Positions 18,635 to 29,988 of a DNA stretch of 32,000 nt are shown in pieces. The notes under the pieces were generated by a model. It worked only from the letters and a program-made list of their open reading frames with translations, ran no database searches and was not told the origin of the DNA. The stretch spans positions 690,001 through 722,000 of the forward strand of contig NC_014729.1 in the NCBI RefSeq assembly GCF_000172995.2, read 5' to 3'. Origin of the DNA: Halogeometricum borinquense DSM 11551 (GTDB taxonomy: Archaea; Halobacteriota; Halobacteria; Halobacteriales; Haloferacaceae). The translations under genes and the position numbers were made by a program. Position 1 is the stretch's first letter. Each line of letters opens with the position of its first letter.

Positions 18635-18838
18635 CGCGCGCGGTCTGAATTTCGCTATTTTCGTTATGACCTCATCCCTGTCTCGAACTCGGACGCTGCC
18701 GTGTGGGTATCACTGTAGCGTGTCTCCGGTCCAATCGCCCGCCGTGCGGCGTTCGTGACGCTCACTAACACCCGACGCCCCCGCCTCGAAAAGAAACTCT
18801 TAAACTAATCCTCGAACAACCACTGAATGCGCTCACCT

Positions 18839-18912
18839 GGGCCAATAGCTCAGTCAGGTTGAGCGCTCGGCTGATAACCGGGAGGCCCGCGGTTCAAATC
18901 CGCGTTGGCCCA
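18839..18912 (+). tRNA. tRNA-Ile (anticodon GAU)
   Basis: Cloverleaf folded by hand, 74 nt. Acceptor stem GGGCCAA/TTGGCCC, D stem GCTC/GAGC, anticodon stem CTCGG/CCGGG, anticodon loop CTGATAA (anticodon GAT), variable loop AGGCC, T stem CGCGG/CCGCG with loop TTCAAAT, discriminator A. No CCA is encoded. Confidence 0.92.
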
Positions 18913-19086
18913 TGCCCAGGACGGCCGGTCTTTGACCGGCCCCGTCTGGGGGGCTCAACTCCCCAGCCACCTAATTTCCGTACTTCACACTTCTGAGCCG
19001 CAGCTATTTCATCTTAAGTTCATTCACGGTTTGAACGGTGGTCGCCGCCGTCTGTCGATTCGAATAGCCGACGGAGGTGACCCCGC

Positions 19087-20798: not shown

Positions 20799-21227
20799 TT
20801 AGAAGCTGATGCCGTACCCGTTCTTTTTTGCGAACTCAATGAGGTTAATGCACATCTCAATCGTTCGATCTACGATCTCCATTCGATCGTCGTCAAGTTG
20901 ATCCTCGAGGTTCTTGCGGGCAACTTCAAGTGACGTGACGAACGTATCGAGTCCTTCTATATCTCGGACTACTCCGTCCTCGTCACGATACTTGAATAAT
21001 ATCTCTGCTATTGATGGCTCTCCCGTATCTACTACCTGTGTTGTTGGATTTTTATAGATCATAAACACATCATCCTGCCGTAAGTTCTCTTTAAAGTGCT
21101 TATATTCGGAGATTTCATCGAGGGAGTCGTCGTATTTTGAGTTTTCAACATGGTAACGGTAGAACTGTTTACCAGTTGCAAGCGTCTCCTTCTCGTCAGG
21201 GACAACTAGTGAGAATGTACTACTCAT
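20799..21227 (-). CDS. Putative immunity protein for the orphan toxin tip
   Basis: 142 aa, low GC, starting 4 nt downstream of the orphan toxin cassette. No signal peptide and no recognised family. The role is inferred from position only. Confidence 0.6.
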   Translation of the reverse strand: MSSTFSLVVPDEKETLATGKQFYRYHVENSKYDDSLDEISEYKHFKENLRQDDVFMIYKNPTTQVVDTGEPSIAEILFKYRDEDGVVRDIEGLDTFVTSLEVARKNLEDQLDDDRMEIVDRTIEMCINLIEFAKKNGYGISF

Positions 21228-21231
21228 ATTC

Positions 21232-21984
21232 TCACCACGGGCTCACGCTTTTGGCTACTCTATACATCAGCTCAAGCACCTCATTGGTCCACCTGTACGT
21301 TTCAACTTGATCAGAGTCTATGTCTTCGTGTTCACCAGTGTTGTCCATTCCCCTCGGGACAATAGCACATGCCTCAGTGTTCGCGAAGTCGTCTCCTGAC
21401 AGATCCAATACGGACTTGTTCAATCGATCCGGATTTTCAATCTTAGGAACACCATTTTCGTCTTGAGGTATTCCTGAGTTCTGTATATCGGCGATCTTAT
21501 TTTCCGCTTGTTTGATCGCCTCTCTTGCATGATCGTCATTACTTGAGCCAGTTTTTTCTTCGACGGCTTTCACAACTTCCCCCTTCTCCTTGTCCATGAT
21601 TAGCTTGTCAATTTCTGGGTTTTCTTCAGTGTATACATGAAATCCCTTAGCCATATTATCGTGAGCCGGAACTACTACAAGTTCATCTCTCTCGTCAAAG
21701 TCCTTAACAAAGCTTTCAACAAGATTTTTCTCCGGATGTGACGAGAGAACTTCCCCAACGTCACCTTGGTCCCCACCGAGATCTTTGGGTGAGTCACCGA
21801 TTCTCCAGAGGTCCTCGAAGAACTCATCGTATTTGTCATCGTCTACGGTCTGTTCTAACTCAGCGAGTAACTCGTCACTCAATCCCATCTCTTTGAGCGC
21901 CACCAGTGGTGACGCCACAGTATCCCGATCAGGGAGGTTGTTCCAGCGGGGCATCCGCTGAACGTGCACGTCTGAGTGCTCCAT
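21232..21984 (-). CDS. Orphan (displaced) polymorphic-toxin C-terminal cassette
   Basis: The 250-aa ORF begins MEHSDVHVQRMPRW..., exactly the junction motif found inside the 635-aa toxin (...HRMEHSDVHVQRVPQ...). 35 nt are identical (21956-21990 versus 23829-23863). It has no DUF4157 module of its own, and the remainder is unique and low GC. Confidence 0.75.
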   Translation of the reverse strand: MEHSDVHVQRMPRWNNLPDRDTVASPLVALKEMGLSDELLAELEQTVDDDKYDEFFEDLWRIGDSPKDLGGDQGDVGEVLSSHPEKNLVESFVKDFDERDELVVVPAHDNMAKGFHVYTEENPEIDKLIMDKEKGEVVKAVEEKTGSSNDDHAREAIKQAENKIADIQNSGIPQDENGVPKIENPDRLNKSVLDLSGDDFANTEACAIVPRGMDNTGEHEDIDSDQVETYRWTNEVLELMYRVAKSVSPW

Positions 21985-21998: not shown

Positions 21999-22766
21999 CT
22001 ATTCGCGTGAATGAATAGCGAGATCAGTGAGATGGTCCTCTTCTTCAAGTGTTGACTCCGATAGAGAGTCTGCAAAGAACTGAATTCTGTCTGGTTCCAG
22101 CTCTTCTTTGAATTGATTGAGACATGTAACAAGCCGCCCTCTATTTATTGCACCAATTGTAGTATCCTTGAACCAGATATCTGTGTCTGTATAGACGCTT
22201 ACTAAAATACTTGTCATTGGACTCGAATCATCGTAGCCATCTATGTCATGGCTAACCTCAAATCGCAGAGGATCAATTGAAGAGCTGCCAAGGATGTCGT
22301 CTTCATTACGTCTATTAACGACCTTATAGTATTGATCGTTCTCAGAACAAAGATATCGGTTTTCACCACTAATATAGAATTTTGTCAATCCCGACCCGAA
22401 CTTAACGTTGGAAACGATCCGTTGATAGCCATCTTCCGTCGTGGATTCGCTAAACTGCTCAAATATCTCTGATACGTCTAATCCATCTTGATCTTCATAC
22501 TCATAGCTTTCTGCGATAAGATCAGTGGACTCGAAGTCATATATCTGATCCAGTGATACCTCATTTGGGTATGTGAATTCTCCAACTTCTATGCTAGTCG
22601 GTCGATAAAAACAGCCAAATGCATCAGATATGAGTGAAATTACAGTAGTAACATTCTGGTGTGATTCTTGAACTGATTCTCCGACATCATCAATTCGAAA
22701 TGTCCATGATGCATCTAAGTGAGGATTTGAGACGATGAAATCAGTATTAGGGATCATTACTGCCAT
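21999..22766 (-). CDS. Putative immunity protein for the DUF4157 / PD-(D/E)xK-like toxin
   Basis: 255 aa, acidic, low GC. Its ATG lies inside the last codons of the toxin gene (minus strand ATGGCAGTAA, a 10-nt overlap). No family recognised; the role is inferred from position. Confidence 0.65.
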   Translation of the reverse strand: MAVMIPNTDFIVSNPHLDASWTFRIDDVGESVQESHQNVTTVISLISDAFGCFYRPTSIEVGEFTYPNEVSLDQIYDFESTDLIAESYEYEDQDGLDVSEIFEQFSESTTEDGYQRIVSNVKFGSGLTKFYISGENRYLCSENDQYYKVVNRRNEDDILGSSSIDPLRFEVSHDIDGYDDSSPMTSILVSVYTDTDIWFKDTTIGAINRGRLVTCLNQFKEELEPDRIQFFADSLSESTLEEEDHLTDLAIHSRE

Positions 22767-24664
22767 TGCACCTCATTTTTGTTTATTTTACCTGTGATAA
22801 CCTTGTTTCCGACCACAATACGGACAGCATCAATGGGTACTGATCCAAATTGGATTTTCTTCATTATGTACGATTCAATGTACCGTTTTGCGTCCTCTAG
22901 CGGCTTACCTCTCAATTCTCCTTTTTCATCAATAGGGCTTTTGAAATTTAACTCAACTATCCTTTCGTGATGATCAACATTAAACTCATTAGATACGTCT
23001 TCAATTTTCTTACTAACAGAATCAGATTCAAACTTGTCTATAGTCTTACCTATCTCACCACTAATGAAATCTTTATCGACGTATCCTTTCTTTGGACTCT
23101 TTTGTTCTGCCCAGATGGCTTTATTCCCCTCCACAGCCAAGATGTCAATTCGATCTTCCCTGTCCGGTTCCATCTCAACATATTCTGACTGTCTTACGTA
23201 TGCAGCGAGTCGTTCTGTCTCAAATGCCACACCATCAAATACACTGTTCGGATCGTTATTTGACAACGATCCAATTGAATCGTCACCATCAACGACTGTT
23301 GTTGCGTCCCGCTGGGCGACATCCATCGTTTCTTCGAGTCGGGCCAGGTACTCCAGAATTCGTTCTGACCCATGTCCCTCAGCGATCTCTGTCAATAAGT
23401 TTCGTCGCCACTTTCCAAGTGTTGCAGCATGGTACTCGGAGAAGTCCTCGACAGTAGTGCCCATTACTGCACTGAACAGGTCTGTTCCACGTCTCTCCGC
23501 AATTTCGAGGGCGGATGAATCACCGGTAGCGATCACCTGGTCCACAGCCGAAGCGTTTCCTTCAGTACGGTACCCCAACAAGTCATTCAGTTGTTCTTGC
23601 TGGTCGGATGAGAGCGATCCCGAGTCATCGATAGCTAGATCCTCAGCAAAGTCGAAGCCTCGGGGGGTATCCGTACCATTGGCATTCAGCAGTGCCGCCA
23701 AAAGTTCCGGGCGAAGGCTCTCTGAGCCCTCACTGTAAGACTCTAGTAACGCTCTAATTTTCTCCTCTTGCTCTTCGTCAATGTCGAACTTAGAGAGTGC
23801 AAGCCCCAATCGGGCCGATTGAGGAACACGCTGAACGTGCACGTCTGAGTGCTCCATGCGATGCACGCCGATTTTCCCACCTTGCATCACGCGCTGGGCG
23901 GTTTCTTCGGCTTCCCGCTCTAAGCGCGGGTCAGGATCAATCTCTAACTCGCCTTCTTGGGGAAGCATCGACACCGCGCCACCAGTTTGTTGGCGCACGT
24001 GCGCTAACTCGTGGGCGAGAATATGCTGGCCTTCAGCACTTGATGGATCGTATTCGCCGTGGTTGAACGCGATGTGATTCCCGACGGTAAACGCGCGGGC
24101 GTTGATATCCTCGCAAGCTTTCGCGGCCGATGGACCCGTATGGATGCGTACATCGCCCAGATTGTCGCCCATCCGATCTTCCATCGCACGCTGGATGCTC
24201 GTGTCGAGTTGCTGGCCCGGCGAGGAAATCACGTCTCGTACGGAGTCAGGCACGTTCGTGTCGCCAGCTTTCGACGCCTCGTGGTGCGCGCCGCGACTAC
24301 GCTGGACAGATTTAGCGTTCCGGCGTTCGATGTCCTTTGGGACTTCTGCGGGACGCTGTTTTTGCCGTTCACGGAACGCGCGCATGTCGCGTGGTTTGCC
24401 CATCGTATCGACGGTCATTCCCTCGTCGGCCCATTCTCGGACTTGACCTGCGCCGTGTTTCTTGGCCAGTCGCTGAATCTTCGTATCCAGCCCGTCCATG
24501 TATATTTCGACGCCGAATCGTGATTCACACTCTTGGGGTGTTAGCGAACCACCGCCACTCCGGCCTCGATCACGACCTGAGCCTCCCGTCAGCTCTTGGA
24601 TCGAGGGGACAGACGAGGACCGATCACCCTCACGGGTTCGTTCCTCTGTAGATCGAAATCCCAT
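22757..24664 (-). CDS. DUF4157-domain polymorphic toxin, paralog B, with a PD-(D/E)xK-like C-terminal tip
   Basis: 635 aa. The DUF4157-type signature is GQQLDTSIQRAMEDRMGDNLGDVRIHTGPSAAKACEDINARAFTVGNHIAFNHGEYDPSSAEGQHILAHELAHVRQQTGG. The junction reads GVHRMEHSDVHVQR. The C-terminal region FETERLAAYV...DRIDILAVEGNKAIWAEQKSPKK fits E...D...E-x-K. GC drops visibly 3' of the junction. Confidence 0.9.
   Translation of the reverse strand: MGFRSTEERTREGDRSSSVPSIQELTGGSGRDRGRSGGGSLTPQECESRFGVEIYMDGLDTKIQRLAKKHGAGQVREWADEGMTVDTMGKPRDMRAFRERQKQRPAEVPKDIERRNAKSVQRSRGAHHEASKAGDTNVPDSVRDVISSPGQQLDTSIQRAMEDRMGDNLGDVRIHTGPSAAKACEDINARAFTVGNHIAFNHGEYDPSSAEGQHILAHELAHVRQQTGGAVSMLPQEGELEIDPDPRLEREAEETAQRVMQGGKIGVHRMEHSDVHVQRVPQSARLGLALSKFDIDEEQEEKIRALLESYSEGSESLRPELLAALLNANGTDTPRGFDFAEDLAIDDSGSLSSDQQEQLNDLLGYRTEGNASAVDQVIATGDSSALEIAERRGTDLFSAVMGTTVEDFSEYHAATLGKWRRNLLTEIAEGHGSERILEYLARLEETMDVAQRDATTVVDGDDSIGSLSNNDPNSVFDGVAFETERLAAYVRQSEYVEMEPDREDRIDILAVEGNKAIWAEQKSPKKGYVDKDFISGEIGKTIDKFESDSVSKKIEDVSNEFNVDHHERIVELNFKSPIDEKGELRGKPLEDAKRYIESYIMKKIQFGSVPIDAVRIVVGNKVITGKINKNEVQWQ
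23829..23863. repeat. 35-nt exact repeat, copy 2 (junction inside the full-length toxin gene)
   Basis: Identical to 21956-21990. On the minus strand it encodes HRMEHSDVHVQR. Confidence 0.9.
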
Positions 24665-25991: not shown

Positions 25992-26822
25992 TTAGTTCCG
26001 TAGTTCCTTTTCACTGGCCAATCCATCCATGAACCTACGTCCTAAGTCAGATACCTCATACTGTTTGTACATATCCCGATCCAGCAGGCCCTTATTCAAC
26101 AACAATTCGCATCTTTTTTCTGTTAATTCTATGCTCTTTCCTACTTTTTTTGAAATTTGGTCAACCCTCTGTGCCTGATCTTCTTGTTGAACTGCTTCAA
26201 TAATTCTATAATCAATAACCTCCATCCATGGTATTTTCGTATGGGACCGAAGTGGACTGAGTCTATATAATCTGAGAAAATAGTGGGCGGTATGACGTTT
26301 CCCCTCAGTAGCTAAATATTTAAAATCTGGAAGTATTGTTGAGATATACGGGATAGATTGGTAAACTAGTGTGAGTACCAGAATCAATATTATGGAAGAA
26401 ATCAAATACGATTTACCTCCTCCGTAATATCCAGTTATCACTCCGGAGGCTAATCCTATGAACAATAGCAGTGTAGTAAGTGTAGAGAAGAATAGACTAG
26501 CATCTGTGAGCCGAGAGAAAGAGGATATCTCTCTGGCGTTGTAATCGGACCAGCCCGAATCTGCTCCTTTCGGCTTCTTGTGTGTCTGAGATACTAGAAC
26601 TAGAGTGACCGAGAATATCCACAGCAATCCACCAATAATTGTTGCATAAGAATTGACTGCATTAGAGACCGAGACTGACTTAATGTTCGAATTTGAAACG
26701 ACTGCAAGGGCAGTAAGAAAGGCAGAAATCTGGATTACGTTATATTTTTGAATACTGTCTAATCGGTCCATCAAATGCTCATACCGAGGGTCAACGGAGG
26801 TTTGATCCTCGTCACTTCCCAT
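25992..26822 (-). CDS. Membrane-anchored winged-helix protein (N-terminal multi-TM region plus C-terminal wHTH)
   Basis: 276 aa, low GC. There are about four hydrophobic helices (e.g. IIGGLLWIFSVTLVLV, SSIILILVLTLVY). The C-terminus reads VIDYRIIEAVQQEDQAQRVDQISKKVGKSIELTEKRCELLLNKGLLDR, which is MarR/wHTH-like. Confidence 0.7.
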   Translation of the reverse strand: MGSDEDQTSVDPRYEHLMDRLDSIQKYNVIQISAFLTALAVVSNSNIKSVSVSNAVNSYATIIGGLLWIFSVTLVLVSQTHKKPKGADSGWSDYNAREISSFSRLTDASLFFSTLTTLLLFIGLASGVITGYYGGGKSYLISSIILILVLTLVYQSIPYISTILPDFKYLATEGKRHTAHYFLRLYRLSPLRSHTKIPWMEVIDYRIIEAVQQEDQAQRVDQISKKVGKSIELTEKRCELLLNKGLLDRDMYKQYEVSDLGRRFMDGLASEKELRN

Positions 26823-26947
26823 AGAAAATAAATTCTGTAGTATTTTATATATGCTGTGATCATTTCTCCTATGAAACGGAAACTAAAATATCACCTCCGC
26901 AGAAACCTCCAGAATTAAGTCATTCTCAGTACAGTTTTTGATTGGGA

Positions 26948-27745
26948 ATGGCGACTCCAACGACTATTCCGATCAGCGTACTTTCTATCCTCTTGCTCCT
27001 AGCTCCGGGATTGGTAGGTCTTCAAATATTTTTCAAATATGCTCAGAGGAGACCTTCCCCATCACGTACTAAGTGGGTTGCTTGGAGCGCTCTCACCAGT
27101 TTAATTTCGCTTGTATTGCTCTATTTATTCTCGGGATTTTATTTACTGAACCTAAGAAGGATTGCCAGTAGTCTGAGTGGATTTCTTGGTATAATTTCTA
27201 TCAATGGTATTGAACTATCTGCCACAAGTGCTTTATTCTTGTACCTATCCCATATATTTGTTATATTCGTTGGATCATCTCTTCTTGGGTTGTTTGATCG
27301 AAATATTCTAAACAAAGACGAAATTCTTGATCCACGTGAGCCATGGGAATACGCATTTGATGAAATTCCGGTAGATGGTGAAGAATTAGATATCTATCTT
27401 CAAGATGGTGTTCAACTACGAGGAGAGTTCAATGAGAGAGCGTGGGATAGCTCCAAACGCGAATTATTCCTTGAAAATCCGTATAAAGTTGAATCAGATG
27501 GCAAGGGTGGACAATCTCTATCGGATTTGGGTAGAAGCATTTTAATTCAATCTAAGGCAGTTTCGCATATTGTGTTTGCTACTGAAGATCCCGACCAGAA
27601 ACGAATAGAATCTATTGAGGTCACTTCTGAAACAGCAGGAGAAATAGAAAACCTGATTAACGAAGTATTGACCCCTGACGTTACTGGCTATGAAGATCAA
27701 GAAAAGAGAGACAACAAGCAGGATGACGAAGAGGATGCGGATTAA
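26948..27745 (+). CDS. Hypothetical membrane protein with a soluble acidic C-terminal domain
   Basis: Low GC. ATG at 26948 (the track uses TTG at 26942). The N-terminal helices read ISVLSILLLLAPGLVGLQIFF, ALTSLISLVLLYLFSGFYLL and ALFLYLSHIFVIFVGSSLLGLF. The tail reads QEKRDNKQDDEEDAD. Confidence 0.7.
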   Translation: MATPTTIPISVLSILLLLAPGLVGLQIFFKYAQRRPSPSRTKWVAWSALTSLISLVLLYLFSGFYLLNLRRIASSLSGFLGIISINGIELSATSALFLYLSHIFVIFVGSSLLGLFDRNILNKDEILDPREPWEYAFDEIPVDGEELDIYLQDGVQLRGEFNERAWDSSKRELFLENPYKVESDGKGGQSLSDLGRSILIQSKAVSHIVFATEDPDQKRIESIEVTSETAGEIENLINEVLTPDVTGYEDQEKRDNKQDDEEDAD

Positions 27746-27746
27746 T

Positions 27747-28202
27747 TCAAATTTTGTCCACTATATCTAATTCACTTTTTTCGGTATAGTCTGGATATTT
27801 CTGATATACATACCGTAATAATCTATCCAAAGGGGTATCTTGATATCTCTTTTTTATACTCTCTGCAGCTTTGAGCACGTGGTCAACATCTCTGTTCTCA
27901 TCGTTTATGAGGGACTTGACCACTCTTCTCCCCTCATCAGTTAGTGAATAGATGTATTTCTCATTACCCGATACAGTAGTTTCAGTACGTCTTTCTATGA
28001 TTCCCTTATTCTCTAATGTCTTGATTGAACCAGCTAATGACGGTGAAAATGGTCCGTATTTGTCAGACTTAAATTCGTGTAGCTCAGAGATGTCTTTTTC
28101 TTTTTGAGTTAAAAATGCCAGCTTTTGAAAACGAGTAGCTCCCTCTATCTCCGCGTTATTATTTACATACATCAATGCCAGAGGGAGTAAGACATCAGCC
28201 AT
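27747..28202 (-). CDS. YwgA-like / Panacea(DUF4065)-like protein with a wHTH
   Basis: From the ATG at 28202: MADVLLPLALMYV...GATRFQKLAFLTQKEKDISELHEFKSDKYGPFSPSLAGSIKTLENKGIIERRTE...GNEKYIYSLTDEGRRVV. The K-x-Q-K-hydrophobic ... Y-G-P-(F/Y)-S pattern followed by a PadR-like wing matches my recollection of Bacillus YwgA-type proteins. Confidence 0.7.
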   Translation of the reverse strand: MADVLLPLALMYVNNNAEIEGATRFQKLAFLTQKEKDISELHEFKSDKYGPFSPSLAGSIKTLENKGIIERRTETTVSGNEKYIYSLTDEGRRVVKSLINDENRDVDHVLKAAESIKKRYQDTPLDRLLRYVYQKYPDYTEKSELDIVDKI

Positions 28203-28428: not shown

Positions 28429-28629
28429 GTGGCGGAAGACGACGATACCGTACAGATAGATCGTTCGAACTTCCTCGAAAGAACGCGCCACACGTGCCCG
28501 AACGGGCATTCCGACTGGGATCCAACGAACTCACACGTCTGGTGTCGGACCTGCCAACGAATCAACGAGGGCGGGTGCGGTGAGATCGACCCGGACAAAC
28601 ACAAAAACGATTCACTGAATCCCGACCGC
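28429..28629 (+). CDS. Possible small Zn-finger protein (extent uncertain)
   Basis: MAEDDDTVQIDRSNFLERTRHTCPNGHSDWDPTNSHVWCRTCQRINEGGCGE shows a CxxxH...CxxC pattern. The open frame continues to 28893, antisense to the 3' end of the PRTase-HAD gene, so only the intergenic part is listed. Confidence 0.3.
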
Positions 28630-29625
28630 TCACCGCCCCCATCGACTGTACGACAACCGGCTCAGCGTGTAGTAGCCCTCGCTGAGGATGTACTTACTCG
28701 CTTTCAGCGAGAACGAAATCGGGTTGTCGCTGAGACGAGAGAGGTATTCACCGCTCTTGTCGTACACGCGGTCGAGATGACCCGGATTAAGCATCTGGTT
28801 TGCGCCGTAGCAGTGGACGGGCTTTTTCGAGCGCTCGCAAATCTCCGTGGCTTGCCGCATCGAGCTTTCGATGAACAGATCCGCGCCAGTTGAGCAGTAC
28901 ACATCCGCCTTGTACTCGGCGTGGTTGCCGTCCCGCTGCCGGATCTCTTTCGACGGGAGATCCATCATGACCAAGTTGTCGTACTCGATGCCGTGCCTGT
29001 CGAGCCATGCTTCGGTCTCGTCGCGGTACTTTTCCAGCCGGCACGTCACCAGCCAGCCGATGGTTTGGGTGGGGACGACCCGCGGTTCGACCGTCGTGAG
29101 AAACTCCCGGTAGCGCCGTCCGTCGTCGTTTTCCTCGCGCGTTGGGTCGCGGCAGAGGACGCCGTCGATATCGACGCAGAAGTTCTTGAGCATCGGGTGG
29201 TGCATCATGTTCCACTCGAACACGCGCGGTTTGCTGACGACATCTACCCAGTGGTCAACGTGCTTGTGCCCCTGCGAGGAGATGTACATCGCGCCGTACT
29301 CGATATCGAACGGGAAATCGTGTTCTGCGAGTTGGCGTTTCGTCTCCTGCATCTGACGCCCGGTATCGACGGAATCATCGACGACCAACACCGTCTCTAC
29401 GTCCTCGAACGAATCGACTCCGTCGTATCGACGCCCCGTCTGTAGGAGGCGTCCCTCACATAACCCCTCGATGTCGGTCATCGGCACATCGAGGTTCAAA
29501 CAAAGCAGATTCGCGGCGAGGAGTCCGCTTCTCGGGATGCCGGCGACCAGGTCGATACGGGTGGGGAGTTCCCGAGCCAGTTGGCGGGCACTACTGTTCA
29601 GCTGAGATATACTTCTGTGGTTCAC
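28630..29625 (-). CDS. Phosphoribosyltransferase (type I PRTase) fused to a HAD-superfamily phosphatase/nucleotidase-like domain
   Basis: 331 aa with a GTG start. The N-terminal part contains DLVAGIPRSGLLAANLL...ETVLVVDDSVDTGRQMQ, a PRPP-binding loop. The C-terminal part contains FCVDIDGVLCRD (HAD motif I, DxDxV), LVTCR, YKADVY and FIESS. Confidence 0.85.
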   Translation of the reverse strand: MNHRSISQLNSSARQLARELPTRIDLVAGIPRSGLLAANLLCLNLDVPMTDIEGLCEGRLLQTGRRYDGVDSFEDVETVLVVDDSVDTGRQMQETKRQLAEHDFPFDIEYGAMYISSQGHKHVDHWVDVVSKPRVFEWNMMHHPMLKNFCVDIDGVLCRDPTREENDDGRRYREFLTTVEPRVVPTQTIGWLVTCRLEKYRDETEAWLDRHGIEYDNLVMMDLPSKEIRQRDGNHAEYKADVYCSTGADLFIESSMRQATEICERSKKPVHCYGANQMLNPGHLDRVYDKSGEYLSRLSDNPISFSLKASKYILSEGYYTLSRLSYSRWGR

Positions 29626-29859
29626 TATAGCTTGTTCACATTTTGTGAGCGTATTACTCTAGCTACGATAACGCAGTTTAAGAGGCTCAATATCCTGTTT
29701 AGGGGGAACAAAATGTACTGTTCCACAGTGAAAGTGCTGAAACAGTCCCCGATTTTAATGTTGTCAGAAATACATAATTGTCTCTTGTTCACACACATCA
29801 ATTTTACTCGATTCCGTATCACAGTACTATTATATCCGCTAGCGTCGTACGATGCTTCG

Positions 29860-29988
29860 ATGCCCGAAATAAGCGTCTCAGATACCCTGTACCGCCAACT
29901 CGTCTCCGTCTCAGAGGGCGATGATTTGGACGAGACGATGTGGAAGATGGTGGCCCACTACGGTCGCGGCAACCAACCGGGTGACTGA
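29860..29988 (+). CDS. Possible small protein (42 aa)
   Basis: MPEISVSDTLYRQLVSVSEGDDLDETMWKMVAHYGRGNQPGD. Host-like GC resumes exactly at this ATG, after an AT-rich spacer. No family recognised. Confidence 0.3.
   Translation: MPEISVSDTLYRQLVSVSEGDDLDETMWKMVAHYGRGNQPGD

What the first reader, a model, noticed from the sequence alone, without database searches (positions are those of the whole stretch)
28630..29625. Unusual phosphoribosyltransferase-HAD phosphatase fusion in the accessory region
Seen in sequence: one 331-aa ORF combines a type I PRTase core (IPRSGLLAANLL..., acidic PRPP loop VLVVDDSVDTGRQM) with a complete-looking HAD motif set (DIDGVL, a T/S in LVTCR, a K in YKADVY, an acidic/serine motif in FIESS). 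The HAD part resembles small nucleotidase-like HAD enzymes. It sits between AT-rich spacers in the island, on the same strand and 427 nt upstream of the YwgA-like gene start (28202).

Established knowledge: PRTase domains occur as effector modules in some bacterial anti-phage systems, for example certain retron effectors. HAD nucleotidases dephosphorylate (d)NMPs.

Inference: the fusion could make or destroy a nucleotide-like compound, for example by nucleotide-pool manipulation or a two-step phosphoribosylation and dephosphorylation yielding a nucleoside product. It may be a defence or small-molecule biosynthesis enzyme rather than a salvage enzyme.
Basis: partly seen in the sequence, partly recalled or inferred. 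Interest (0 to 1): 0.6.

Follow-up and report, generated by a model that had tools for sequence, protein, structure and literature searches.

The report
Predicted two-step ribose-adding glycan enzyme
The gene is real and is a phosphoribosyltransferase–phosphatase fusion, but it most likely belongs to a large, uncharacterised family that adds ribose to cell-surface sugar chains rather than to an antiviral or nucleotide-pool system.

Summary
The 331-aa ORF at 28630-29625 (-) is real. It is Halogeometricum borinquense "phosphoribosyltransferase family protein".

- **Domains:** an intact type I PRTase domain (aa 1-139), a small capless HAD phosphatase domain (aa 140-280) and a basic C-terminal tail.
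- **Native gene:** GC3 is 0.78, against 0.33-0.39 for the adjacent low-GC genes. It abuts the island and its neighbours are not conserved in other genera.
- **Large family:** the two-domain module gives about 1,500 clusters (50% identity) at E<=1e-30 and occurs in at least 597 species genomes of Bacteria and Archaea.
- **Glycan link:** the module is repeatedly fused to glycosyltransferases, methyltransferases and a Wzx flippase. It also sits in polysaccharide or N-glycosylation clusters.
- **Rhizobial member:** Mll5269 (47% identical) lies in the Mesorhizobium exo cluster beside the ExoT flippase and near a GMC oxidoreductase. That EPS ends in beta-D-riburonic acid.

Best reading: the PRTase domain transfers ribose-5-P from PRPP to a glycan, and the HAD domain removes the 5-phosphate. 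This resembles the known PRP-gPRT ribofuranosyltransferases. It is not a member of that family: the domain order is reversed, the DD motif is canonical, and no homology was detected. No biochemistry exists. Defence and nucleotide-pool roles are not supported.

The parts
28630..29625 (-). Complete CDS (331 aa plus stop) of the PRTase-HAD fusion; GTG start
   Evidence: (100% match to the H. borinquense protein)
29209..29625 (-). Type I phosphoribosyltransferase domain (aa 1-139)
   Evidence: PF00156 E=2e-9; PDB profile hits GpT-1/GpT-2 at about 2e-10; Foldseek hits XGPRT at about 5e-6
29524..29541 (-). PPi-binding loop GIPRSG (aa 29-34); R32 and G34 are invariant across the broad family
29350..29391 (-). 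PRPP-binding loop VLVVDDSVDTGRQM (aa 79-92) with a vicinal acidic pair D83-D84; D84 is invariant
28786..29208 (-). Capless HAD-type phosphatase domain (aa 140-280)
   Evidence: Pnkp1 E=4e-5; PHROG 415/505/1238; AF2 model pLDDT 87; Foldseek Pnkp1/VSP; sub-threshold HAD_SAK_2 in 13 of 33 members
29158..29172 (-). HAD motif I DIDGV (D152 predicted nucleophile, D154 predicted acid/base)
   Evidence: invariant D152, D154 and G155; codons read directly
29038..29052 (-). HAD motif II LVTCR (T194, R196); aligns with LLSGR of Pnkp1
28909..28911 (-). HAD motif III lysine, K239
   Evidence: invariant
28861..28875 (-). HAD motif IV FIESS (E253 and S254 invariant); an unusual E-S in place of the usual D-D
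28633..28785 (-). Basic, predicted helical C-terminal tail (aa 281-331, pI 9.5) on an acidic body; possible membrane-surface anchor (inference)
   Evidence: net charge from residue 285 on is +2 to +11 in all 27 haloarchaeal sequences of alignment A1 (window protein plus 26 homologues), against -12 to -35 for the body; helices 281-300 and 302-329
29626..29859 (.). AT-rich (39% GC) divergent intergenic region, presumed promoter region
29860..29988 (+). 42-aa divergent ORF, conserved next to the PRTase-HAD gene in H. limi and H. luteum; marks native genus-level synteny

Best explanation
The gene encodes a cytoplasmic, probably membrane-peripheral, bifunctional enzyme of cell-surface glycan biosynthesis.

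**Step 1 (inferred).** The N-terminal type I PRTase domain binds PRPP. It transfers ribofuranose-5-phosphate, with inversion, to a hydroxyl group of a growing glycan, probably one that is lipid-linked. The product is beta-linked.

**Step 2 (inferred).** The C-terminal HAD domain hydrolyses the 5-phosphate through an aspartyl-phosphate intermediate on D152. This leaves a neutral ribofuranose.

**After that.** The ribose can be extended by another glycosyltransferase, or left as a terminal residue. In lineages with an adjacent GMC oxidoreductase it may be oxidised at C5 to riburonic acid.

**What is shown and what is inferred.**
- Shown here: the domain identities, the conservation of the catalytic motifs, the family's size, its fusions and its genomic contexts.
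- Inferred: the donor, the acceptor class and both reactions.
- Unknown: the specific acceptor in H. borinquense, where the gene stands alone.
For: 1. **Both catalytic motif sets are intact and under strong constraint**.
2. **PRTase plus HAD behaves as one module.** The best 150 of 2,763 hits all align in a single stretch spanning most of profile positions 1-280, and about 1,500 clusters reach E<=1e-30.
3. **Fusions point to glycan assembly.** Of 19 long members scanned, 11 carry glycosyltransferase domains (GT2, GT4, GT8, GT25, GT28, WbsX). One is fused to a Wzx flippase, four carry methyltransferases (one of these also has a GT4), two carry TupA ATP-grasp domains, and two are tandem duplications.
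4. **Bacterial neighbourhoods.** A census of 114 flanking ORFs in 32 loci (31 bacterial, one Woesearchaeota) is dominated by GT4, GT2, Wzx, Wzy_C, pyruvyl transferases, methyltransferases and acyltransferases. Annotated plasmid clusters agree.
5. **Flippase pairing.** A Wzx-type flippase lies within 400 nt in about 30 of 85 loci, in three separate flippase lineages.
6. **Haloarchaea show the same link.** Flippase, GT2, GT4 or sulfatase neighbours occur in a subset of 24 loci. Hrr. halophilum has an agl-like cluster and Natronomonas has GT2, GT-C and GMC neighbours. The 70%-identical Halomarina orthologue is divergent from a GT4 plus methyltransferase pair.
7. **Mll5269.** It is 47% identical over 287 aa, E=5e-89. 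It lies in the M. japonicum MAFF303099 exo cluster just after ExoT. The R7A EPS, made by the same cluster, ends in beta-D-riburonic acid. To my knowledge no nucleotide-sugar donor for that sugar has been described. The beta linkage fits direct inverting transfer from alpha-PRPP, as reported for known bipartite Ribf-GTs.
8. **GMC oxidoreductase recurs nearby in several phyla**.
9. **Biochemical precedent.** The same two-step logic is demonstrated for Cj1432, Bcs3 and STM0726.
Against: - No member of this family has been assayed or knocked out in the literature I could search.
- In H. borinquense, H. luteum and one Halorubrum group the gene is monocistronic with no glycosylation neighbours.
- I found no report of ribose in haloarchaeal glycans.
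- HAD motif IV is an atypical E-S, and the structural match to HADs is weak (TM 0.46).
- One Halorubrum lineage (P0114) has Glu at the nucleophile position.
- Type I PRTases classically use nitrogen nucleophiles, not sugar hydroxyls.
- The link to riburonic acid is correlative.
- I could not read Kelly et al. 2022, so I cannot rule out that they already noted this family.
Confidence: 0.6

Rival explanations
1. Lipid-linked donor synthase. The PRTase domain transfers ribose-5-P from PRPP to dolichyl or undecaprenyl phosphate, and the HAD domain removes the 5-phosphate. The resulting polyprenyl-P-ribofuranose is flipped and used outside the cell by a GT-C enzyme. This would be a soluble analogue of the DPPR synthase / PPPRS three-component systems.
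For: - Tight pairing with, and one direct fusion to, Wzx/MOP flippases.
- The Natronomonas locus has an adjacent GT-C (PMT_2/DUF7846).
- The R. etli locus lies next to a UbiA/GtrA/FAD-oxidase/SDR block.
- The conserved basic C-terminal tail suggests membrane association.
- There is precedent for the three-component logic.
Against: - Fusions are mostly to cytoplasmic Leloir-type GTs (GT2, GT4, GT8, GT25).
- The R7A riburonic acid is beta-linked. The published rule is that beta-Ribf comes from direct PRPP-dependent transfer, and alpha-Ribf from the lipid-linked route.
- Known polyprenyl-P phosphoribosyltransferases are integral-membrane UbiA enzymes, whereas this protein has no transmembrane segment.
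Confidence: 0.15
2. One reading: a small-molecule or nucleotide enzyme. It would make a nucleoside-like product from a base plus PRPP, or manipulate nucleotide pools, possibly as an anti-virus defence effector tied to the neighbouring YwgA-like gene.
For: - The closest structural relatives of the N-half are purine PRTases.
- The gene abuts a low-GC block whose YwgA/SocA-Panacea-like protein matches the PADLOC candidate PDC-M19A at E=8e-13.
- In several haloarchaea the gene is stand-alone.
Against: - No PADLOC hit for the protein itself and no phage homologue.
- Neighbours are not conserved outside H. borinquense.
- The gene has native composition, unlike the island.
- Family-wide fusions and contexts are polysaccharide genes, not defence or nucleotide genes.
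- It scores far below the salvage equivalog cut-offs.
Confidence: 0.07
3. The PRTase domain is a non-catalytic ligand sensor (PRPP or nucleotide binding, as in PyrR/PurR-type proteins). It regulates a HAD phosphatase that acts on some other phosphorylated glycan intermediate.
For: - PRTase folds are reused as regulatory domains. PurR and PyrR appear among weak PDB hits.
- The HAD half is the more strongly conserved half.
Against: - The PPi loop (R32, G34) and the PRPP loop (D84, S85, G89) are invariant or nearly so across a family at 35-71% identity to the query. That degree of conservation suggests catalysis.
- The module is found where a ribose-derived sugar needs a donor.
Confidence: 0.08

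Closest known systems
Dual-domain PRP-gPRT ribofuranosyltransferases (Klebsiella O4/O7 ORF5/ORF7, Salmonella STM0726, H. influenzae Bcs3 CrpP-CriT, C. jejuni Cj1432 M and C domains)
   Same: - Predicted logic: a PRPP-using transferase plus a HAD phosphatase in one protein.
- Located in polysaccharide clusters.
- Often fused to further glycosyltransferases, as Cj1432 is to a GT4.
   Different: - Domain order is reversed, PRTase then HAD.
- The transferase is a compact 140-aa canonical type I PRTase with a vicinal DD motif. CriT is a roughly 440-aa divergent core with helical bundles and its acidic pair split over two loops.
- The HAD is Pnkp1-like and capless.
- No detectable homology: hhalign probability 0.4% against Cj1432 residues 357-914, and no Bcs3 or T. 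composti hits in PDB profile searches.
- This family also occurs in Archaea.
Purine phosphoribosyltransferases of the XGPRT / Sulfolobus GpT-1, GpT-2 type
   Same: Fold, PPi loop, PRPP loop and the C-terminal FxW 'hood' element.
   Different: - Far below equivalog thresholds.
- Fused to a phosphatase.
- Context is glycan assembly rather than nucleotide salvage, so the acceptor is presumably not a purine.
HAD 3'-phosphatase domain of polynucleotide kinase-phosphatases (Capnocytophaga Pnkp1, PDB 4xrp; T4 Pnkp-like PHROGs)
   Same: Motif I DxDG, motif II (S/T)xR followed by a YRxxTExWL helix, and the small capless HAD core. Both act, or are predicted to act, on a phosphate ester of a ribose.
   Different: No kinase domain and no RNA-repair partners. 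Motif IV is E-S.
Polyprenyl-phosphate phosphoribosyltransferase systems (M. tuberculosis DPPR synthase Rv3806c plus phosphatase Rv3807c; Citrobacter ORF15 PRP-UbiA fusion)
   Same: PRPP-derived ribose-5-P transfer followed by 5-dephosphorylation, feeding cell-envelope glycans.
   Different: Those transferases are integral-membrane UbiA-family enzymes. This one is a soluble type I PRTase.

Membership tests
Type I phosphoribosyltransferase superfamily (PF00156) | Profile match above the curated threshold | tested here: met
   37.3 bits against a cut-off of 26.3, E=2e-9, aa 6-139
Type I phosphoribosyltransferase superfamily (PF00156) | PRPP-binding loop with a vicinal acidic pair followed by a small-residue/Gly turn, plus a PPi loop | tested here: met
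   VLVVDDSVDTGRQM and GIPRSG; D84, R32 and G34 are invariant across 59 diverse sequences
Type I phosphoribosyltransferase superfamily (PF00156) | PRTase core fold | tested here: met
   Foldseek hits XGPRT/HGXPRT at E about 5e-6, probability 1.0, target TM about 0.6
HAD phosphatase superfamily | Motif I DxDx(T/V), motif II S/T, motif III K/R | tested here: met
   D152-I-D154-G-V, T194 (plus R196) and K239. D152, D154, R196 and K239 are invariant in the broad alignment. T194 is invariant among haloarchaeal homologues and at least 90% conserved in the C-half alignment
HAD phosphatase superfamily | Motif IV acidic pair (DD, or GDxxxD) coordinating Mg2+ | tested here: inconclusive
   The invariant pair is E253-S254, which has only one acidic residue
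HAD phosphatase superfamily | Rossmannoid HAD fold, or a significant profile match to a solved HAD | tested here: inconclusive
   Profile hit to Pnkp1 at E=4e-5 over motifs I-II only. Foldseek's top hits are HADs, but at E=4e-3 and TM 0.46. No Pfam HAD model reaches threshold
PRP-gPRT ribofuranosyltransferases (Kelly et al. 2022 family) | Architecture: N-terminal PRP (HAD) followed by C-terminal gPRT | tested here: not met
   The order here is PRTase then HAD.
PRP-gPRT ribofuranosyltransferases (Kelly et al. 2022 family) | Sequence or profile homology to characterised members | tested here: not met
   hhalign of A2 against Cj1432 residues 357-914 gives probability 0.4%. No Bcs3 or T. composti chains appear among PDB profile hits at E<=1 to 10
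PRP-gPRT ribofuranosyltransferases (Kelly et al. 2022 family) | Divergent gPRT core with its acidic pair on two separate loops and helical-bundle insertions | tested here: not met
   This is a canonical vicinal D83-D84 in a 140-aa domain.
PRP-gPRT ribofuranosyltransferases (Kelly et al. 2022 family) | PRPP-dependent Ribf-5-P transfer to a glycan and subsequent 5-dephosphorylation | not testable with these tools
   Requires enzymology. Only contextual support exists
Purine/pyrimidine salvage PRTases (XPRT, HGPRT, OPRT equivalogs) | Score above the NCBIfam equivalog cut-off | tested here: not met
   The best hit, XPRT NF006613, scores 31.2 bits against a cut-off of 138
PRTase-containing anti-phage defence systems (e.g. 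retron effectors) | Match to a defence-system model and conserved linkage to defence partners | tested here: not met
   No PADLOC family matches. Neighbours are not conserved and there is no phage homologue
Polynucleotide kinase-phosphatase (Pnkp) | P-loop kinase domain joined to the HAD phosphatase | tested here: not met
   No kinase domain is present; the N-terminal half is a PRTase

The most novel reading that the evidence does not exclude
This is the archaeal representative of a second, independently evolved family of PRPP-dependent ribofuranosyltransferases: a canonical type I PRTase fused to a Pnkp-like HAD. The family is present in well over a thousand protein clusters across Bacteria and Archaea. 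Two consequences would follow:
- Its rhizobial member Mll5269, together with the neighbouring GMC oxidoreductase, installs the terminal beta-D-riburonic acid of the Mesorhizobium loti EPS, the polysaccharide recognised by the plant receptor EPR3.
- Some haloarchaea decorate surface glycans with ribofuranose or riburonic acid, which I found no report of.
Probability: 0.5. Interest if true: 0.72.

Novelty: new variant of a known kind. Interest (0 to 1): 0.6.

Why it matters
Ribofuranose has no nucleotide-sugar donor. Its incorporation into glycans was only explained in 2022, by the PRP-gPRT enzymes.

If this reading is right, several things follow:
- A second, unrelated-looking architecture doing the same job would show convergent recruitment of PRPP chemistry into glycan assembly.
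- It would give a marker gene for predicting ribose or riburonic-acid residues in unknown polysaccharides and archaeal N-glycans, across hundreds of species.
- It would supply a concrete candidate pathway (Mll5269 plus a GMC oxidoreductase) for the riburonic acid cap of the M. loti EPS, which is a symbiosis signal.
- For annotation, it would correct the widespread labels 'orotate phosphoribosyltransferase' and 'phosphoribosyltransferase family protein'.

Tried and rejected
**Tried, with little or no yield**
- Pfam on the isolated C-half gave nothing useful. Scanning 33 family members gave only sub-threshold HAD models.
- PADLOC on the protein gave no hit.
- tblastn against 50,697 phage records gave no match.
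- Foldseek on the full-length model was swamped by PRTase hits, so the C-half was modelled separately.
- Literature searches found nothing for a PRTase-HAD fusion in haloarchaea, for ribofuranose in haloarchaeal glycans, or for mll5269.
- Kelly et al. 2022 is not held. Its content was taken second-hand from later open-access papers.

**Considered and rejected**
- Alpha-ribazole, cobamide and NAD-type small-molecule routes, and nucleoside-antibiotic-like routes (from memory). No such neighbours appeared in any context.
- A conserved operon with the YwgA-like gene. It is found only in H. borinquense.
- Membership in the PRP-gPRT family.
- Chance ORF. Rejected because full-length homologues at 57-81% identity exist in many genera.
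Full report
**Observation**

The window is from Halogeometricum borinquense, with a 100% protein match to P0001, 'phosphoribosyltransferase family protein'. The ORF 28630-29625 on the minus strand encodes 331 aa from a GTG start. The start is supported because homologues begin MNYRS where this protein begins MNHRS.

**Domains**

- **N-terminal half.** It passes the Pfam PF00156 threshold (37.3 bits against 26.3, aa 6-139). A 59-sequence family profile hits the Sulfolobus GpT-1/GpT-2 and Pyrococcus purine PRTases at E=2e-10 to 2e-9. The AlphaFold model (pLDDT 78) matches XGPRT/HGXPRT at E about 5e-6.
- **PRTase motifs.** The PPi loop GIPRSG and the PRPP loop VLVVDDSVDTGRQM are present. R32, G34 and D84 are invariant and S85 and G89 nearly so, in sequences 35-71% identical to the query.
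- **C-terminal half.** It has no Pfam hit of its own. It matches PHROG 'polynucleotide kinase' and GmhB-like families. As a profile it matches the HAD phosphatase domain of Pnkp1 (4xrp) at E=4e-5, aligning DIDGVL with DLDGTL and LVTsR with LLSGR.
- **C-half structure.** A separate model of aa 140-290 is confident (pLDDT 87, pTM 0.83). Its best PDB matches are Pnkp1, a class IIIB HAD and LNS2 domains, but only at E about 4e-3 and TM about 0.46.
- **HAD motifs.** Motif IV is an atypical E-S.
- **Tail.** Residues 281-331 form predicted helices. The tail is basic in all 27 haloarchaeal sequences of alignment A1 (the window protein plus 26 homologues), while the body is strongly acidic.

**The family**

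A profile search of 1.84 billion representatives found 2,763 hits at E<=1e-3 and 1,496 at E<=1e-30. The best 150 all align in a single stretch spanning most of profile positions 1-280, so the PRTase plus HAD pair is one conserved module. The motif C-x-D-x-D-G-V-L-C-x-D-P is almost universal in these sequences.

They include Halobacteria, a Woesearchaeota MAG, rhizobia, Paracoccus, Gemmatimonadota, Planctomycetota, Bacteroidota and a Lachnospiraceae MAG. A Hadarchaeum member turned up separately. JGI already labels members 'uncharacterized HAD superfamily protein / PRPP-binding protein'. No publication on them was found.

**Fusions**

Twenty-two of the best 150 members are longer than 450 aa, and 19 of these were scanned against Pfam.
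- Eleven carry glycosyltransferase domains: GT4, GT2, GT8, GT25, GT28 and WbsX.
- One is fused directly to a Polysacc_synt_3 (Wzx) flippase.
- Four carry class I or FkbM methyltransferases; one of these also has a GT4.
- Two carry TupA-type ATP-grasp domains.
- Two are tandem duplications of the module.

**Neighbourhoods**

- **Bacteria.** Among 114 flanking ORFs from 32 non-haloarchaeal loci (31 bacterial, one Woesearchaeota), the commonest families are GT4 (15), GT2 (10), Wzx flippases (7 and 6), methyltransferases, Wzy_C (5), pyruvyl transferases, ABC transporters and acyltransferases.
- **Annotated plasmids.** These show the same picture. In Paracoccus the order is 'LPS biosynthesis protein', PRT, GT, GT2, sugar dehydrogenase, then GT4, GT2, GT and a GNVR protein. 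In Rhodobacter, two paralogues flank a GT4, beside an acyltransferase and a flippase. R. beringeri and R. etli have the gene beside glycosyltransferases.
- **Flippase pairing.** A Wzx-type flippase lies within 400 nt in about 30 of 85 loci, in alphaproteobacterial, Bacteroidota and haloarchaeal flippase lineages.
- **Haloarchaea.** Among 91 flanking ORFs of 24 loci, 6 are flippases. There are also GT2 (4), GT4 (4), sulfatases (3) and methyltransferases (2).
  - Hrr. halophilum has GT4, flippase, PRT-HAD, sugar nucleotidyltransferase, PGM/PMM, then GT2.
  - Natronomonas has a GMC oxidoreductase with a small subunit, GT2, PRT-HAD, a GT-C (PMT_2), then an RGP-type mutase.
  - Halomarina halobia (70% identical) has a divergent GT4 plus methyltransferase.

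**Link to a solved glycan structure**

Mll5269 (BAB51748.1, UniProt Q98C73) of Mesorhizobium japonicum MAFF303099 is a family member. It is 47% identical to the window protein over 287 aa, E=5e-89.

In MAFF303099, M. erdmanii and other Mesorhizobium strains it lies in the exo cluster. The exo gene names below are my assignment from Pfam domains and the published gene order:
- ExoP, ExoN, three GT2 genes and a 390-aa gene on one strand;
- then the ExoT flippase followed by PRT-HAD on the other strand;
- then GT4, a 149-aa protein, a GMC oxidoreductase, UDP-glucose dehydrogenase, ExoK (GH16) and ExoU.

Reviews state that this cluster (mlr5249-mlr5276) is present in both R7A and MAFF303099. They also state that the R7A EPS repeat is Glc5 Gal1 GlcA1 plus a terminal beta-D-riburonic acid. 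To my knowledge no nucleotide-activated donor for ribose or riburonic acid has been described.

A PRPP-dependent transfer, then 5-dephosphorylation, then C5 oxidation by the GMC oxidoreductase would account for this residue. The beta linkage agrees with the published rule that direct PRPP-dependent Ribf transfer gives beta-ribofuranosides, while alpha linkages arise through lipid-linked donors.

GMC oxidoreductase homologues recur near the gene in Sinorhizobium, Hyphomonas, Rhodobacter, a Rhodothermaceae MAG, Natronomonas and Hrr. salipaludis. All of this evidence is correlative.

**Local context in the window**

- The gene has GC 0.589 and GC3 0.777, like the native genes upstream of it (GC3 0.74-0.77).
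- The YwgA-like, DUF6338 and TM-HTH genes downstream have GC3 0.33-0.39.
- The upstream side (carB ... acetyltransferase ... Na/Ca exchanger) and a 42-aa divergent ORF are shared with H. luteum, and the 42-aa ORF also with H. limi.
- The downstream neighbours differ between genera.

The gene is therefore a native gene at the edge of a variable region. It is not cargo of the island, and it is not functionally tied to the YwgA-like gene.

**Mechanism proposed**

1. The PRTase domain binds Mg-PRPP through the PPi loop (R32) and the PRPP loop (D83/D84, S85, T88, G89).
2. A sugar hydroxyl of a glycan, probably one linked to dolichol or undecaprenol, attacks C1 with inversion. PPi is released and a beta-linked ribofuranose-5-phosphate is left on the glycan. 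Invariant W138 and near-invariant D124 in the 'hood' are candidates for acceptor stacking and general base. This assignment is inference.
3. The HAD domain removes the 5-phosphate, with D152 as nucleophile, D154 as acid/base, T194, R196 and K239 binding the phosphate, and E253 binding Mg2+.
4. The basic tail may hold the enzyme at the membrane.

The domain identities, motif conservation, fusions and contexts are shown. The donor, the acceptor and both reactions are inferred.

**Comparison with known systems**

The same two-step logic is biochemically established for the PRP-gPRT ribofuranosyltransferases. The present family is not a member of that group:
- The domain order is reversed.
- The transferase is a compact canonical PRTase with a vicinal DD. 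CriT has a split acidic pair and helical bundles.
- The HAD is Pnkp1-like.
- hhalign against the characterised Cj1432 HAD plus gPRT region gives probability 0.4%.
- PDB profile searches return no Bcs3 or T. composti chains.

It works like those enzymes but is best filed as a new variant. One caveat: I could not read Kelly et al. 2022. Later papers mention 'sequence-based outliers' found with a PRP marker, so prior recognition of this family cannot be fully excluded.

**Rivals**

- A polyprenyl-phosphate acceptor, giving a lipid-linked ribose donor. This remains possible, given the flippase pairing and the GT-C neighbour. It is disfavoured by the fusions to cytoplasmic Leloir GTs and by the beta linkage in R7A.
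It lacks any support beyond the purine-PRTase fold and a strain-specific neighbour.
- A regulatory, non-catalytic PRTase domain. This is unlikely given the invariant catalytic loops.

**Weaknesses**

- No member has been tested experimentally.
- H. borinquense gives no contextual hint of the acceptor.
- I found no report of ribose in haloarchaeal glycans.
- The HAD assignment rests on motifs and weak matches.
- One Halorubrum lineage has Glu at the nucleophile position.

**Verdict**

The most likely function is a PRPP-dependent, two-step ribofuranosyl transferase of surface-glycan biosynthesis. My confidence is about 0.6 for the chemistry and higher, about 0.85, for a role in glycan assembly at family level. 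It is a new variant of a known kind, of moderate to high interest.

Noticed in passing
window 22757-24664 (-), with 21999-22766, 21232-21984 and 20799-21227 (-): A low-GC block (GC 0.40-0.47) encodes a 635-aa protein with an eCIS core domain (PF13699, E=2e-31). Three co-directional ORFs with no Pfam match lie immediately downstream of it on the minus strand. This may be a toxin or effector cassette.
   Followed up: partly
window 18838-18913 (+): tRNA-Ile(GAT) lies just upstream of the low-GC blocks at 20-23.5 kb and 25.5-28.3 kb. The position suggests an integration hot spot. No att repeats were searched for.
   Followed up: no
window 25992-28202: Three low-GC3 (0.33-0.39) foreign genes sit here:
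- a YwgA/SocA-Panacea/DarG-C-like wHTH protein (27747-28202, PADLOC PDC-M19A E=8e-13);
- a DUF6338 membrane protein (26942-27745);
- a multi-TM protein with a CARF-associated HTH (25992-26822).
They are possible defence or toxin-antitoxin cargo and are unrelated to the PRTase-HAD gene.
   Followed up: partly
window 28429-28632 (+), ORF continues to 28893: An unannotated ORF in the downstream spacer begins with a zinc-ribbon-like sequence (CPNGH...CRTC). It runs antisense into the 3' end of the PRTase-HAD gene. It was found only in H. borinquense contigs, so its reality is unclear.
   Followed up: partly
window 29860-29988 (+): A 42-aa acidic ORF, divergent from the PRTase-HAD gene, is conserved at the same position in H. 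limi (83% identity) and H. luteum (77%). Its function is unknown.
   Followed up: partly
L097 12193-14227 (M. japonicum); L094 6844-8984 (Natronomonas): A GMC oxidoreductase with a small partner protein recurs near the PRTase-HAD gene in distant lineages. The partner is a 149-aa protein with no Pfam hit in Mesorhizobium, and a Gluconate_2-dh3 subunit in Natronomonas. This is a candidate for C5 oxidation of ribose to riburonic acid.
   Followed up: partly
L086 756-4814 and 11995-16146 (R. etli plasmid pRetIE4803c): A 439-aa family member lies beside a GT28 protein. About 7 kb upstream is a UbiA / GtrA / FAD-oxidoreductase / SDR block resembling the decaprenyl-P-arabinose pathway. A type VI secretion locus is next door.
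   Followed up: no
P0114 (Halorubrum, loci L002/L003), alignment A1 position 152: This Halorubrum lineage has Glu in place of the HAD nucleophile Asp (CVEIDGVLC) and sits in a stand-alone context. Phosphatase activity may be lost or altered there.
   Followed up: no
P0121, P0122; L089 12001-15579 (Rhodobacter): The module occurs as tandem duplications within one polypeptide, and as two paralogous genes flanking a GT4. This hints at addition of more than one ribose per repeat.
   Followed up: no
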